NCBI GenBank assembly: GCA_009914755.4
Contig: CP068257.2
Span: forward strand, 544,001 to 608,000
From: the human T2T-CHM13v2.0 reference genome, Homo sapiens
Length of the DNA stretch: 64,000 nt
Direction: 5' to 3'
Part shown: positions 1 through 20,756 of the stretch, one piece after another
Numbering within the stretch: the stretch's first letter is position 1
How the letters are laid out: each line of letters begins with the position of its first letter
Notes under the pieces: generated by a model
Seen by the model: only the letters and a program-made list of their open reading frames with translations
Database searches by the model: none
Told to the model about the DNA's origin: nothing
Program-made: the position numbers and the translations under genes

Positions 1-638
1 CTCGCTCCCTGGCTCACGAAATCCCCCTGTGGGAGAGACCCAGGCGCGCAAGGCACGTGGGGTGTGTGAAGCCCTGTTCCCCACGAGCCGGTGTGGGCAA
101 AGGCGACCCACCAGGGAACAGAGTGACACCCGCCGGGGGCCGCGTTGCACAGGCTGCCTGGCTGCGCAGGCTTCCTGCCCGCCTGTCCCTTGTGTCCGGC
201 CCTTCGATTCTGAAACCAAATCTGAATCCTGGACTCCAGGAGTGCCGTCTCTCTGGCCAGCTCTTCCCTGGCAGCAATACCTGGAAAGCAATCCTTCTCA
301 AAGGCTCAGAGGAGCAGGTCGGAATAGGAGCCGGTGACGGCGGTCCGCGTTTGCCTGCATTCTTGTGGGCCGCATATCCCGGGCCAGGGCCGAGATTCCC
401 GCCGGTGCTGCCTCAGCTGGCGTGACCTCTCATTCTGAAACCAAATCTGGACCCTGGGCTCTGGAATGCCGATGGCCTGGGCCAGCCCTTCTCTGGTGGC
501 GATGCCCGGGTATGTGTTCCGCTCAAAGCAGGCTCACAGGGCCTCGCTTTTGCTCGGTGTCCATACGAGTCTCCATCGCCATCCCCGTCACCGGGCTTCC
601 TCGTGGAGGGTGCTCTCCGAAGGTGTCGGGAGGGCCAT
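1..638 (-). pseudogene. DUX4L: DUX4-like double-homeobox gene fragment (unit A). The ATG equivalent is preserved at 636-638 (cat on + strand). No intact minus-strand ORF covers homeodomain 1, so it is disrupted. Truncated by the window edge.
   Basis: The sequence around 600-640 (gtgtcgggagggccatcgcggggagcc) matches the start region of unit C. Minus ORF 14..301 is the out-of-frame homeodomain-2 region, the same alternate-frame product as C ORF 19336..19695. Confidence 0.65.
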
Positions 639-774
639 CGCGGGGAGCCCCGGTCGGAATTTCACAGACGGACACAGGCAGAGAGAGGCCGGCGGGCTCC
701 CGTGCACCTCAGCCGGCCTGTGCATTGCAGCAAGTGCAGCCAGAGGGCCTGCCCGGACAGCTAGCCAGCGGCTC

Positions 775-783
775 TTTTAAAGG
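775..783 (-). promoter_or_regulatory. TATA-like element (ttttaaagg) about 140 bp upstream of the DUX4L ATG equivalent, unit A
   Basis: Positional homologue of ttataaa in unit C and tttaaaag in unit B. Human DUX4 has a TACAA box at a similar distance (recalled from memory). Confidence 0.3.
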
Positions 784-1418
784 CCTGCAGGTAGGCAGGC
801 TCCACCCCTTCATGAATGGCGGTGAGCCCTGGGACAGCCCGCCCCACCCCGGAAGGGTCCCAGGGCGTCGAGGCCTGTGGCCGGATGGTGTTGGGTTGTG
901 GGGGGAGGGCGTGGTGATGGTGGTGGTGGGGCCAGAGAGACAAAGAGGAAGGGGGCGAGGGGGAAGGGGTGAGGGGGGCGCGTTTCGGGGGGCTGGCTGT
1001 CCAGACCTCTCCAGGAATCCCACGGGAACTGGAAGCTGCTCTCTGGGCTCCCACGCGTCTTCAGCAGGGAGAAACCGGCCTGTGAGAGTGGAGGGGAGTG
1101 TGGAACAGAACCTCCGTGGGAGTCTTGAGTGTTCCAGGCCGTCTCTCCGTGAAGGAGGCAGTGTCTGTGGGTGTCGCCATTGCCGGGAGAGTCTGACACA
1201 CGCAGGCGTGTGGCTCTCATTCATTTCCACGTAGGAGACCAGAGCGAGACCCCAGAGAGAAGATGCCTCCCCGGCTTGATGGCCTGACAATGGATTCCCG
1301 TGTGCCGCAACGTGGGGAGTCTGCAATGTGGCTGGTTTGGAAACAGGCAAGGAGAGCGAAGCTTCCACCCTTCCCTGCATGTTTCCGGGTGCCCGCAGAG
1401 CTCCGGGAGAAAACAGCA

Positions 1419-4400
1419 TGACACATCTCTGAACTGATCAACAAAGTGAGGTAACTCTTGTCTAGGCTCTGCCTACAGGGGCTTTGTGACATATCTCTGC
1501 ACTGATCACCCAGGTGATGTAACTCTTGTGTTGGATCTGTCTACGGGGTCATTGTGACATATTTCTGCAATGATCACCCAGGTGATGGGACTCTTGTCTA
1601 GGCTCTGTGTATGGGGGCTTTGTGACATATCTCTGCCCTGATCACCCAGGTGATGAAACGCTTGATTAGGCTCTGCCTATGGGGCATAGTGACATATCAC
1701 TGAATTGATAACCGAGGTGATGTAACTCTTGTCCAGGCTCTGCCTATAGGGGGTCTTGTGACATATCTCTGCACTGATCACGTAGGTGATGTAACTCTTG
1801 CTTACGCTCTCCCTGCAGGGGCATTGTGAAATATCTCTGCACTGATCACCTAGGTGATGGGACTCTTCTCTAGGCTCTGCCTACTGGGGGAATTGTCACA
1901 TATGTCTGCACTGATAACCCAGGTGACGGACTCCTGTCTTTGAATTGCCTATGGGGGCATTGTGACATATCTCTGCACTGATCACCCAGGTGATGTAACT
2001 CTGGTCTAAGCTCTGCCTAAAGGAGCATTGTGACAGATCTCTGCACTGATCTCTCAGGTGATGTCACTATTGTCTAGGCTCTGCTTAAAAGGGCCTTGTC
2101 ACATATCTCTGCACAGATCATCCAGGTGATGTAACTCTTGTCTAGGCTCTGCTTACAGGGGGTATAGTGACAAATCTCTGCACTGATCACCTAAGTGATG
2201 TAACACTTGTGTAGGCTCTGCCAACAGGGGGATTTTGACATATCTCTGCACTGTTAACCGAGGTGACGTAACTCTTGTCTAGGCTGTGCCCACAGGGGGA
2301 TTGAGACATATCTCTGCACTGATGCAGGGGTGTTCTAACTCTTGCCTGGTCTCTGCCTACTGGGGTTACTGTGACATATCTCTGCACCAATCTCCCGGGT
2401 GCTGTAACTTTAATCTAGGCTCTGGTTACACGGAATTGTGACATATCACTGCACCCAAGTGATATAACTTGTCTAGGCTCTGCCTACAGGGTTCTCGTGA
2501 CATATCTCTGCACTGATCACCCAGGTGACATAACTCTTCTCTAGGATCTGCATACAGGGTTCTATGTGACATATCCCTGCAATGATCACCCAGGTGATAT
2601 ACCACTTGTCAAGGCTCTGCCAACAGGGGCATTGCGACACATCTCTGCACTGATCACCCAGGTAGTGTAACTGTTGTATAAGCTCTGCCTACAGCGGAAT
2701 TGTGTGAGATCTCGCCACTGATCACCCAAGTGATGTAACCATTGTCTAGGCTTTGCCTATAGTGGGCTTTTGACATACATTTGCACTGATCACCCAGGTG
2801 ATGTAACTCATCTAAGTTCTGCCTACAGGAGCTTTGTGACATATCTCTGCACTGATCACTTAGGGTATGTAACACTTTTATAAGCACTGCCTACAGGGAA
2901 ATTGGACAAATCTCTGCACTGATCACCTAGGTGATGTAACTCTTGTCTACCCTCTGCCCAAAGGGGGCATTGTGAAATATCTCTGCAATGATCACCCAGG
3001 TGATTCCACTCTTGTCTAGGATCTGCCCACAGGGGGTATTGTGAAATATATCTGCACTGATCAACTAGGTGATATAACTCCCGTCTAGGCTCTGCCTACA
3101 GGGGCGTTTTCACATATCCCTGAACTGATGACACAGGTGATGTAACTCTGGCCTAGGCTTTGCCTACAGGGGACATTGTGACATATCCCTGCACTGATCA
3201 CCCAGGTGATGCAACGCTTCTCTATGCTCTGCCTACAGCGGACATTGTGACATATCTCTGCACTGATCACCCAGTTGATGCAACTCTTCTCTATGCTCTG
3301 CCTACAGGGGGCATTGTGACATATCTCTGCACTGATCAACGAGGTGATGTAACTCTTTTCTAGTCTCTGCCGACAGAGGGCGTTGTGACATCACTCTGCA
3401 CGGATCACACGGTTTATGTAACTCTTGACTAGGCTCTGCCTACGGGGGCATTTTCACATATCACTGCACTGATCACCGAGATGATGTAACTCTTGTATAG
3501 GCTTCGCCGACAGGGGGCATTGAGACATATCTCTGCACTGATCACCGAGGTGATGCAACTGTTGTCTGGGATCTGCTTACAGGCGGCATTGTGACATATC
3601 TCTGCCCTGATCACCCAGGTGATGTAACTCTTGTCTAGGCTCTGCCTACTGGAGACATTGTGACATATCTCCGCACTGATCACCCAGTTGATGTCACTAT
3701 TGTCAAGGATATGGCTATAGAGATATTGTGACATGTCACTGCACTGATCACAGAGCTGATATAACTCTTGTCTAGGCTCTGGCAACAGGGGGCTAGTGAC
3801 ACATCTCTGCACTGATCACACAGGTGATGTAACTCTGTTCTAAGCTCTGCCTAAAGGGGCATTGTGACAGATCTCTGCACTGAGCACTCAGGTGGTGTAA
3901 CTATTGTCTAGGCTCTGCTTAAAGGGGCCTTGTCACATATCTCTGCACTGATCACCCAGGTGATGTAACTCTTGTCTAGGCTCTGCTTACAGGGGGTATT
4001 GTGACATAACCCTGCACTGATCACCTAAGTGACGTAACACTTATGTAGTCTCTGCCTACAGTGGCATTTTGACATATCTCTGCACTGTTAACCGAGGTGA
4101 TGAAACTCGTGTCTAGTCTGTGCCCACAGGGGGATTGAGACATATCTCTGCACTGATCCCGAGGTTATCCAACTCTTGCCTGGTCTCTGCCTACTGGGGA
4201 CATTGTGACATACCTCTGCTCTGATCACCCAGGTGCTGTAACTTTAGTGTAGGCTCTGGCTACACGGCATTGTGACATATCACTGCACTGATTACCCAGG
4301 TGATATAACTCTTGTCTAGGCTCTGCCTACAGGGGGCTTGTGACATATCTCTGCACTGATCACCCAGGTGATATAACTCTTCTCTAGGATCTGCCTACAG

Positions 4401-19906: not shown

Positions 19907-20096
19907 CCGTCCCTGGGCTTCCGCGGGGAGGGTGCCGTCCGAAGGTGTCGGGAGGGCCATCGCGGGGAGCCCCGGCCGGAATTTCACGGACGGACACAGG
20001 CAGAGAGAGGCCGGCGGGCTGCAGTGCACCTCAGCCGGCCTGTGCACTGCGGCAGCTGCAGCTAGGAGGCCTGCACGGACAGCCAGCCAGCTGCAC

Positions 20097-20103
20097 TTAT
20101 AAA
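20097..20103 (-). promoter_or_regulatory. TATA-like element (ttataaa, a palindromic TTATAA core) about 140 bp upstream of the unit C DUX4L ATG
   Basis: Context ccagctgcacttataaaggcccacaggcaggc. A/T island in an otherwise GC-rich region at the expected promoter position. Confidence 0.35.
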
Positions 20104-20218
20104 GGCCCACAGGCAGGCATGCTCCACCCCTTCATGAATGGCGGTGGGCCTTGGGACAGCCCGCCCCACACCGGAATGTTCCCAGGGCTTAGAGGCCTGC
20201 GGCCGGGGATGGTTTCGT

Positions 20219-20233
20219 GGGGGGGGGGGGGGG
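20219..20233 (+). repeat. G15 homopolymer within a purine/G-rich tract (20215-20300) upstream of the unit C DUX4L. Homologous tracts lie at 893-978 (A) and 11455-11545 (B).
   Basis: ggtttcgtggggggggggggggagggcgtggtgatggtggtcgtggggcc... Units A and B have only 5-7 G at this site. Confidence 0.8.
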
Positions 20234-20756
20234 AGGGCGTGGTGATGGTGGTCGTGGGGCCAGAGAGACGAAAGGAAGGGGGCGATGGGGAAGGGGTAAG
20301 GGTGCCGCGTTTCGGGGGCTGGATCTCCGGACCTTTCCAGGAATCCCGCGGGAACTGGAAGCCACTCTCTGGGCACCCTCGCATCATCAGCAGGGAGAAA
20401 CCGGCTTGGGACGGTGGAGGGGAGTGTGGAACTGAACCTCTGAGGCAGTCTTGAGTGTTCCAGGCCCTCTCTCCGTGAAGAAGAGTTCCTGTTGGTGTCA
20501 CCGTTGCCGGGACAGTCTCACACGCCCAGGCTTGTGGCTCTCGTTCATTTCCATGTAGGAGACCAGAGTGAGACCCCAGAGAGAAGATGCAACCCGGCGA
20601 GATGGCCTGATGATGGAATCCCGTGTGTGACAACATGGGGAGTCTGCAATGTGGCCGGTTTGGAAACTGGGAAGGAGAGCGAAGGCACCGTGCCGGTCTT
20701 CCACACTTCCCTGCATGTTTCCGGGTGCCCGCAGAGCTCTGGGAGCAAACAGTCAG

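What the first reader, a model, noticed from the sequence alone, without database searches (positions are those of the whole stretch)
1..20756. Single D4Z4-like / DUX4-like units interspersed in beta satellite as a compound macro-repeat
In the canonical FSHD locus the 3.3-kb D4Z4 units are in direct tandem. Here three units of about 2.76 kb each stand alone. They are separated by 6-7.8 kb of 68-bp beta satellite. All have the same orientation and the same unit/satellite junction sequences. Low-side junctions are ...ctccaggctttgactaaagagc|ttcggaaggtgttgtgagagcctcagc at about 9236 and about 17995. High-side junctions are ...gcagagctc(t/c)gggag(c/a)aaa(c/g)ag...catgacacatctctgaactgatcaacaaagtga at 1418, 11998 and 20756. 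This implies one ancestral D4Z4-into-satellite event followed by amplification of a compound [DUX4L + beta satellite] block of about 8.8-10 kb. The organisation fits DUX4L/beta-satellite blocks described on acrocentric short arms and other heterochromatin, but the exact locus and species cannot be determined from sequence alone.
Basis: partly seen in the sequence, partly recalled or inferred. Interest (0 to 1): 0.6.

Follow-up and report, generated by a model that had tools for sequence, protein, structure and literature searches.

The report
DUX4 pseudogene units in beta satellite
This stretch is a known kind of primate heterochromatin, the LSau/beta-satellite composite repeat, in which dead copies of the DUX4 (D4Z4) unit sit singly inside 68-bp beta satellite; it is real but ordinary.

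Summary
Three GC-rich units lie at 1-1418 (cut by the window start), about 9238-11998 and about 18004-20756. They share one orientation and are separated by 7.8 kb and 6.0 kb of 68-bp, Sau3A-type satellite. Both junction sequences are shared.

Each unit carries a DUX4-like double-homeobox reading frame on the minus strand. Stops, and in unit 3 a frameshift, break every copy. Compared with the canonical unit as described in the literature, the units look 5'-truncated. They end in a pLAM-like tail that runs into the satellite without the ATTAAA poly(A) signal.

The same two junctions and the same unit length of about 2.77 kb recur in dozens of independent contigs from human skin and gut metagenomes. 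One NCBI contig is 100% identical across the unit 1 junction. Assembly artefact and independent insertions are therefore excluded.

The local copies are old. Units 2 and 3 are 86% identical, with 20 shared against 177-187 private changes. From about 31 kb a 2,042-bp beta-satellite higher-order repeat takes over.

This architecture is already published as beta-composite arrays, or the LSAU-BETA/LSAU-BSAT composite (Agresti/Meneveri, Lyle 1995, Altemose, Hoyt, Butterfield 2023). It is already known and of low interest. Species (probably human) and chromosome remain undetermined.

The parts
1..1418 (-). Unit 1, cut by the window start. It holds the 5' region (639-1418) and the N-terminal half of a DUX4-like pseudogene (3-638, three in-frame stops).
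   Evidence: tblastn; self-BLAST; Pfam two homeodomains; NCBI contig L001 is 100% identical to 95-1660
1419..9237 (+). Beta-satellite spacer 1 (7.8 kb, 68-bp monomers, diverged). It contains an internal paralogue of its own first 1.7 kb at 5843-7528.
   Evidence: TRF; GATC 0.99 per monomer
9238..11998 (-). Unit 2, a complete 5'-truncated D4Z4-like unit with a pLAM-like tail at its low end.
   Evidence: CpG 5.86 per 100 bp
9941..11206 (-). DUX4-like pseudogene of unit 2. It is 80% identical to a DUX4-like protein over 424 residues, with no frameshift, but with start Met changed to Ile and 7 in-frame stops.
   Evidence: tblastn; Pfam
11999..18003 (+). Beta-satellite spacer 2 (6.0 kb). Its last 1.85 kb is paralogous to the last 1.85 kb of spacer 1 (87.4%).
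18004..20756 (-). Unit 3, a complete 5'-truncated D4Z4-like unit. It has 796 bp upstream of the ATG, the pseudo-ORF, 221 bp to a KpnI site at 18466-18471, then about 460 bp of partial D4Z4 plus pLAM-like tail.
   Evidence: primers 187/188 of PMC2965761 span the KpnI site
18696..19960 (-). DUX4-like pseudogene of unit 3, with three in-frame stops and one frameshift near residue 258.
   Evidence: tblastn; ORF list; Pfam
20757..31000 (+). Diverged beta satellite without further units. It includes paralogy between 20.8-24 kb and 26.6-30 kb (offset about 5.8 kb) and a 548-bp sub-repeat near 24.8-25.9 kb.
31001..64000 (+). Simple beta-satellite array organised as a 2,042-bp (30-monomer) higher-order repeat. 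In-register copies are 90-95% identical to the reference copy (one 86%), and some are shortened.

Best explanation
The region is a stretch of the known LSau/beta-satellite composite repeat ('beta-composite array', LSAU-BETA or LSAU-BSAT) of hominoid heterochromatin, most probably human. It borders a simple beta-satellite higher-order-repeat array.

Each GC-rich unit is a 5'-truncated D4Z4 element with a pLAM-like 3' tail. It carries a decayed DUX4 retrogene copy (DUX4L pseudogene) on the minus strand.

The two unit/satellite junctions arose once. The module of satellite flank, unit and satellite flank was then multiplied by segmental duplication or unequal exchange within and between heterochromatic blocks. 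After that the spacers changed length through gains and losses of satellite. The three copies here date from an early phase of that spread and have since diverged without homogenisation. The neighbouring 2,042-bp higher-order repeat is younger and more homogeneous.

The copies cannot encode DUX4 and lack the 4qA-type poly(A) signal. The block behaves as non-coding, CpG-bearing heterochromatin rather than as genes.

Shown here: anatomy, pseudogene state, shared junctions, co-copied flanks and old divergence. Inferred: the mechanism of spread, the chromatin state, the species and the chromosome.
For: Anatomy.

DUX4 homology on the minus strand, with stops and a frameshift in all three units. Two homeodomains in each conceptual translation.

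3' end: a KpnI site and a pLAM-like tail run into the satellite. The position of the 4qA poly(A) signal reads GTCACA, and no AATAAA or ATTAAA lies within about 400 bp downstream (exon 2 and exon 3 primers).

Beta-satellite features: 68-bp period and about one Sau3A site per monomer, as defined.

Family-wide stereotypy: 63 of 83 outside contigs have the low junction, 53 of 83 have the high junction, and 39 have both with a unit length of 2,679-2,783 bp, mostly 2,767-2,770.

Independent assembly: a 1,566-bp contig is 100% identical across the unit 1 junction. Contigs 97-98% identical to unit 3 alone exist.

Co-copied flanks.

Age: units 2 and 3 are 86.2% identical to each other and about 92% to the family consensus, with 20 shared against 187 and 177 private changes. 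Decay is concentrated at CpG sites. CpG density is 5.9 per 100 bp, against about 5.4% reported for divergent D4Z4 copies.

Literature:
- Beta-composite arrays with interspersed LSau.
- The LSAU-BETA composite on 16 chromosomes, with 80-95% identity within arrays in centromere transition regions.
- 319 copies of a 5'-truncated D4Z4-pLAM element in LSAU-BSAT regions of the acrocentrics and chromosome 1.
- A table of partial D4Z4-like units flanked by beta-satellite arrays.
Against: No reference genome or RepeatMasker/Dfam run was available, so 'beta satellite', 'LSau' and 'pLAM' rest on defining features, published primers, literature descriptions and my memory of the 4qA sequence, not on a database call.

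The unit here is about 2.76 kb, whereas Butterfield et al. give about 3.1 kb for the commonest truncated form. The difference may lie in how the ends are defined, but I could not check this.

Satellite G+C is 47% here, against 52-53% quoted in the literature.

No contig identical to units 2 or 3 was found; the best are 97-98%. A non-human ape origin is therefore not excluded.

The outside contigs were chosen for closeness to a consensus-like DUX4 protein, which biases the consensus used for dating.
Confidence: 0.93

Rival explanations
1. Assembly artefact: the units really belong to a contiguous tandem D4Z4 array, and the satellite between them is a mis-join or mis-placed sequence.
For: Satellite-rich regions are prone to mis-assembly. 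Nothing in the window itself speaks for this.
Against: Three copies share both junctions but differ by about 14% from one another, so they are not one junction copied by an assembler. A separate NCBI contig is 100% identical across the unit 1 junction. Dozens of independent short-read contigs carry the same junctions and end in satellite on both sides.
Confidence: 0.01
2. Independent, repeated insertions of D4Z4 or DUX4 fragments into beta satellite at each site (for example by retroposition or repair capture), rather than copying of a compound module.
For: The satellite phase is roughly continuous across the unit, ending near monomer position 28-37 and resuming near 48. That is compatible with an insertion at least once.
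Against: The same breakpoints at both ends occur in all local copies and in most outside copies. Flanking satellite is paralogous for 1.8-3 kb at about the same divergence as the units. The units contain promoter-side and intron-bearing genomic D4Z4 sequence, not a processed transcript.
Confidence: 0.02
3. A locus of working DUX4 paralogues: the units encode protein or yield stable DUX4-like mRNA.
For: Some acrocentric and chromosome 1 D4Z4-like copies keep long open frames, and a few have a putative poly(A) signal. Unit 2 has no frameshift.
Against: All three copies have several in-frame stops, unit 3 also has a frameshift, and unit 2 has lost its start codon. No AATAAA or ATTAAA lies downstream. 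Private changes accumulate at a similar level in both units.
Confidence: 0.02
4. It is the same composite repeat, but from a non-human ape genome rather than from human.
For: No outside contig is identical to units 2 or 3; the best are 97-98%. Exact look-ups of 17 other window ORFs found nothing. Linked beta satellite and D4Z4 also occur in chimpanzee and gorilla.
Against: There is a 100% match over 1,566 bp to a contig in a public NCBI assembly, and contamination of that kind is usually human. All named outside sources are human skin or gut metagenomes. Paralogues and haplotypes of acrocentric heterochromatin commonly differ by a few per cent.
Confidence: 0.2

Closest known systems
LSau/beta-satellite composite repeat (beta-composite arrays of Altemose et al.; LSAU-BETA / LSAU-BSAT composite of Hoyt et al.; Sau3A-LSau linkage of Agresti and Meneveri)
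   Same: Single D4Z4-like (LSau) units are interspersed in 68-bp beta satellite. Unit-to-unit identity of 86% falls within the 80-95% reported for arrays in centromere transition regions. The units are 5'-truncated with a pLAM-like tail, and CpG density is reduced to about 6 per 100 bp.
   Different: Nothing of substance differs. The unit is about 2.76 kb as measured here, against about 3.1 kb quoted for the commonest truncated form. The chromosome and species of this copy are unknown.
Canonical D4Z4 macrosatellite at 4q35 and 10q26 (FSHD locus)
   Same: It has the same DUX4 retrogene with two homeoboxes, the same KpnI landmark downstream of the stop codon, and the same kind of transition from D4Z4 through pLAM into beta satellite as at the distal end of 4qA.
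   Different: At 4q and 10q the 3.3-kb units are head-to-tail, nearly identical and have intact frames. Here the units are single, truncated by roughly 0.5-0.9 kb at the 5' side, 86% alike and broken by stops. They have no ATTAAA signal and no CTCF consensus.
Simple beta-satellite higher-order-repeat arrays (Waye and Willard 1989; Greig and Willard 1992)
   Same: The 31-64 kb part is a plain 68-bp array with a 2,042-bp higher-order period and 90-95% identity between copies.
   Different: The first 31 kb lacks a clean higher-order period and carries the D4Z4-like units. The higher-order unit has only diverged (about 84-85%) relatives inside the spacers, at 3930-5964 and 27050-29081.

Membership tests
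Beta satellite (Sau3A family, BSR) | Tandem monomers of 67-69 bp | tested here: met
   TRF period 68, 115 and 763 copies. Lag-68 is the top autocorrelation peak in all three spacer and satellite segments of the first 31 kb, and third after 2042 and 4084 in the higher-order array. Definition.
Beta satellite (Sau3A family, BSR) | A Sau3A site (GATC) in nearly every monomer | tested here: met
   0.99-1.10 GATC per monomer in the satellite segments, against 0.07-0.10 per 68 bp in the units. The modal spacing is 68-69 bp.
Beta satellite (Sau3A family, BSR) | G+C of about 52-53% | tested here: inconclusive
   G+C is 46.6-47.3% here, a few points below the published figure.
Beta satellite (Sau3A family, BSR) | Match to the curated BSR consensus (RepeatMasker/Dfam) | not testable with these tools
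   No repeat library is available, and no paper in the library prints the consensus. An indirect link exists: published DUX4 exon 3 (pLAM) primers align to the monomer consensus here.
D4Z4 / DUX4-like (LSau) unit | A DUX4-type open frame with two homeodomains and the DUX4 C-terminal region | tested here: met
   tblastn covers residues 1-424 in units 2 and 3 and 1-212 in unit 1. Pfam PF00046 is found twice in each translation. Homologues include ape double-homeobox proteins.
D4Z4 / DUX4-like (LSau) unit | GC-rich, CpG-rich unit with genomic D4Z4 landmarks (KpnI site after the stop codon, exon 2 sequence) | tested here: met
   G+C is 0.64-0.65 and CpG observed/expected is 0.56-0.59. The KpnI site lies at 18466-18471 in sequence matching primers 187/188.
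Canonical tandem D4Z4 array (4q35/10q26 type) | Complete 3.3-kb KpnI units in direct head-to-tail tandem | tested here: not met
   The units are about 2.76 kb and are separated by 6.0 and 7.8 kb of satellite.
Canonical tandem D4Z4 array (4q35/10q26 type) | Intact DUX4 frame and, for 4qA, an ATTAAA poly(A) signal in pLAM | tested here: not met
   Stops and a frameshift are present in all copies. No ATTAAA or AATAAA lies downstream, and the homologous position reads GTCACA. The 4qA sequence context is from memory.
LSAU-BSAT / beta-composite array | LSau (D4Z4-like) elements interspersed singly within beta satellite | tested here: met
   The same arrangement is seen in outside contigs, including two units in one contig. 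Definition.
LSAU-BSAT / beta-composite array | Annotated location in a reference genome (acrocentric short arms, 1q12 and others) | not testable with these tools
   No human or ape reference assembly can be searched here.

The most novel reading that the evidence does not exclude
The most novel reading still open is that this block is an unusually old, unhomogenised relic of the first spread of the composite. Neighbouring units share almost no derived changes, and the block sits directly against a young 2,042-bp beta-satellite higher-order repeat. Such a boundary could be used to date the origin of the D4Z4/beta-satellite junctions and to ask why exchange is suppressed on one side and active on the other. 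It would be somewhat more notable if the window proved to come from a non-human ape.
Probability: 0.25. Interest if true: 0.25.

Novelty: already known. Interest (0 to 1): 0.1.

Why it matters
It matters little as a discovery. The architecture has been described since the late 1980s and is annotated genome-wide in the complete human assembly.

It has practical relevance for FSHD work. Divergent D4Z4-like copies in beta satellite soak up probes, guide RNAs and short reads aimed at 4q35. Knowing that copies such as these are dead and lack a poly(A) signal helps to interpret off-target signal.

The sharp contrast between old unhomogenised composite units and an adjoining homogeneous higher-order repeat is a modest illustration of uneven turnover within one satellite domain.

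Tried and rejected
- **Empty site.** I looked for a place where the low and high flanks meet without a unit, near 26.5 kb and 5.8 kb. Only the high-flank satellite is paralogous there (83-86%). The low-flank part is at background identity (72-74%), so these are internal satellite duplications, not empty or excised sites.
- **Exon 3 primers as a pLAM marker.** I tried to use the published primers to mark pLAM specifically. They align about as well to the general monomer consensus as to the junction monomer, so they show only that exon 3 is satellite-like.
- **Exact-protein look-ups to identify the species.** One of 18 ORFs was found, in an NCBI assembly whose organism I could not determine.
- **Exact scan of bacterial and archaeal genome contigs** for the unit 1 junction gave no hit.
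- **Printed beta-satellite consensus.** A full-text search found none.
- **Rfam scan of the whole window.** Nothing reached threshold, so no microRNA-like family was detected.
- **CTCF consensus scan.** There were no sites even with one mismatch, in line with loss of the 5' insulator part of D4Z4.
- **Hoyt et al. 2022, published version.** It could not be fetched, so I used the preprint.

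
Full report
**What is in the sequence**

The first 21 kb contain three GC-rich segments (G+C 0.59-0.68) in a background of 0.45-0.49. Tandem Repeats Finder calls the background a 68-bp tandem array, at 1419-9231 and from 12009 to the end of the window.

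Unit 3 with 300 bp of flank aligns colinearly and in the same orientation to 8930-12297 (85.7%) and to 1-1716 (86.7%). There are therefore two complete units, plus one that the window start cuts.

CTCCAGGCTTTGACTAAAGAGC occurs exactly twice, ending at 9237 and 18003. The first satellite monomer after each unit is the same variant, at 1424, 12008 and 20764. Alignments across the junctions are 88-91% identical.

Small corrections apply. The low junction of unit 3 is at 18003/18004. The periods are about 10.57 kb and 8.76 kb. Satellite-like sequence continues 20-40 bp into the units at both ends, so the boundaries are soft.

**What the units are**

A DUX4-like protein recovered from the protein search (P0012) aligns on the minus strand of all three units.
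- Unit 1 (638-3): residues 1-212 with three stops.
- Unit 2 (11206-9941): all 424 residues at 80% identity and without a frameshift, but with the start Met changed to Ile and seven stops.
- Unit 3 (19960-18696): three stops and a frameshift near residue 258.

Pfam finds two homeodomains in each conceptual translation. They are DUX4L pseudogenes.

Reading the minus strand of unit 3, 796 bp lie upstream of the ATG. After the stop codon come 221 bp to a KpnI site (18466-18471). That site sits in sequence matching the published exon 2 primers 187/188. A further 460 bp or so then grade into satellite.

From my memory of the 4qA sequence, that last stretch is the partial D4Z4 plus pLAM (DUX4 exon 3) region. 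The position of the 4qA ATTAAA signal reads GTCACA here, which is the ordinary satellite monomer sequence. No AATAAA or ATTAAA lies within about 400 bp downstream of either complete unit. The published exon 3 primers 183/184 align to the monomer consensus, so exon 3 is itself satellite-like.

No CTCF consensus is present. This fits a 5' truncation that removes the insulator part of D4Z4, as Butterfield et al. describe for the commonest divergent form. CpG density is 5.9 per 100 bp in the units and 0.8-1.1 in the satellite. The literature gives about 5.4% for divergent D4Z4 copies.

**What the spacer is**

The spacer has a 68-bp period, about one GATC per monomer and a modal GATC spacing of 68-69 bp. 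These are the defining features of beta satellite, the Sau3A family. G+C is 47%, a little below the published 52-53%. I could not run RepeatMasker.

**Is it real, and is the compound module copied as a whole?**

One window ORF (709-1419, minus strand) exists verbatim in a public NCBI assembly. Its 1,566-bp contig is 100% identical to window 95-1660 and spans the unit 1 junction.

A scan of metagenome contigs with the DUX4-like protein returned 80 loci; the contigs that name a source are labelled human skin or gut. With three other fetched contigs this makes 83 loci.
- 63 carry the same low junction.
- 53 carry the same high junction.
- 39 carry both, with a unit length of 2,679-2,783 bp, mostly 2,767-2,770 bp. 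The window has 2,770 and 2,760 by the same measure.

The junctions are thus a property of the whole family, not of this window.

Flanking satellite is co-copied. The last 1.85 kb before unit 2 matches the last 1.85 kb before unit 3 at 87.4%. The first 1.8 kb after unit 1 matches that after unit 3 at 84.8%. Outside contig L004 stays colinear with the window for about 3 kb of low-side satellite at 92.7%.

The spacer length is not fixed. L011 has two units 1.8 kb apart and L012 has two units 0.6 kb apart, although short-read collapse cannot be excluded there. The spacers here are mosaics with internal duplications, for example 1419-3200 against 5843-7528 and 20.8-24 kb against 26.6-30 kb. Two places that looked like possible empty sites proved to share only the high-flank satellite.

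**Age**

In an alignment with 41 outside units, units 2 and 3 are 86.2% identical to each other and about 92% identical to the outside consensus. Their differences concentrate at CpG sites (about 80-82% identity there, against 94.5% elsewhere). They share only 20 derived changes, against 187 and 177 private ones.

The neighbours are therefore not recent copies of each other. They separated early and have not been homogenised. The caveat is that the outside set was chosen for closeness to a consensus-like protein.

Two short contigs are 98.1% and 97.0% identical to unit 3 but only 85-87% identical to unit 2. They are probably a paralogue or haplotype of this very copy.

**The rest of the window**

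From about 31.0 kb to the end, the satellite is organised as a 2,042-bp higher-order repeat. In-register copies are 90-95% identical to the reference copy at 50000-52041 (one at 36043 is 86%), against about 76-77% out of register, and a few are shortened. Its only relatives in the composite part are about 84-85% identical, at 3930-5964 and 27050-29081. The window thus spans a boundary between a composite array and a simple array.

**Comparison with what is known**

- Hoyt et al. describe the LSAU-BETA composite on 16 chromosomes, with 80-95% identity within arrays in centromere transition regions.
- Butterfield et al. count 319 copies of a 5'-truncated D4Z4-pLAM element, mainly in LSAU-BSAT regions of the acrocentric chromosomes and chromosome 1. 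These are about 90% identical to 4qA and highly methylated. The authors regard D4Z4-pLAM as the ancestral form.
- A 2026 review tabulates several hundred partial D4Z4-like units flanked by beta-satellite arrays; most have no exon 3 and nearly all lack a poly(A) signal.

Every feature found here fits that description. I file the region as a member of this known composite. It fails the tests for a canonical tandem D4Z4 array.

**How it most likely works**

Shown: the units cannot encode DUX4, lack the 4qA-type poly(A) signal, and were copied together with satellite flanks from a single pair of junctions.

Inferred:
- Spread occurred by segmental duplication and unequal exchange among heterochromatic blocks.
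- The spacers later expanded and contracted.
- The block is silent and methylated.

Whether the first junction pair arose by insertion of a D4Z4 fragment into a monomer cannot be decided here. The satellite phase is roughly continuous across the unit, which would fit insertion. The alternative is capture of a terminal D4Z4-pLAM-satellite end.

**Open points**

Species and chromosome remain open. Human is most likely, given the exact match to a public contig and the human-associated sources of all named relatives. However, no contig identical to units 2 or 3 was found, and apes also have linked D4Z4 and beta satellite. Mapping to complete human and ape assemblies would settle this.

**Verdict**

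The feature is already known and of low interest.

Noticed in passing
window 31001-64000: The beta satellite is organised as a 2,042-bp (30-monomer) higher-order repeat. In-register copies are 90-95% identical to the reference copy at 50000-52041 (one at 36043 is 86%). Several steps between successive copies are shorter than 2,042 bp: 1,496, 1,498, 1,705, 1,428 and 1,905 bp, plus two one-monomer (1,973 bp) shifts. Its only relatives in the composite part are about 84-85% identical, at 3930-5964 and 27050-29081.
   Followed up: partly
window 24797-25918: Three copies of one distinctive monomer variant lie exactly 548 bp (8 monomers) apart. This indicates a short local higher-order repeat inside the diverged satellite.
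   Followed up: no
window 5843-7528 and 26572-28361: Paralogues of the satellite segment that follows each unit occur without a unit in front of them. The sequence upstream of them is not related to the low-side flank, so these are internal satellite duplications, not empty sites.
   Followed up: yes
L001 (NCBI GCA_030445325.1, JASFXJ010001235.1), 1-1566: A 1,566-bp contig in a public NCBI assembly of unknown organism is 100% identical to window 95-1660. It is probably host DNA carried into that assembly.
   Followed up: partly
L002 (ENA ERZ1754729 NODE_1062), 1-5328: A metagenome contig joins about 2 kb of D4Z4-like sequence to a gene with bacterial arabinofuranosidase-type domains. This is most likely a chimeric assembly.
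   Followed up: no
window 31872-62710, minus strand: A 137-codon open frame recurs once per higher-order repeat copy in the satellite. It is a by-product of periodic sequence that happens to lack stops. Exact look-ups of three copies (33913-34326, 40655-41068 and 50865-51278) found nothing in the protein collection.
   Followed up: partly
L011 417-7734 and L012 1-4028: Outside contigs carry two D4Z4-like units only 1.8 kb and 0.6 kb apart. The spacer in this repeat family therefore varies from under 1 kb to nearly 8 kb, unless short-read assembly collapsed the satellite.
   Followed up: no
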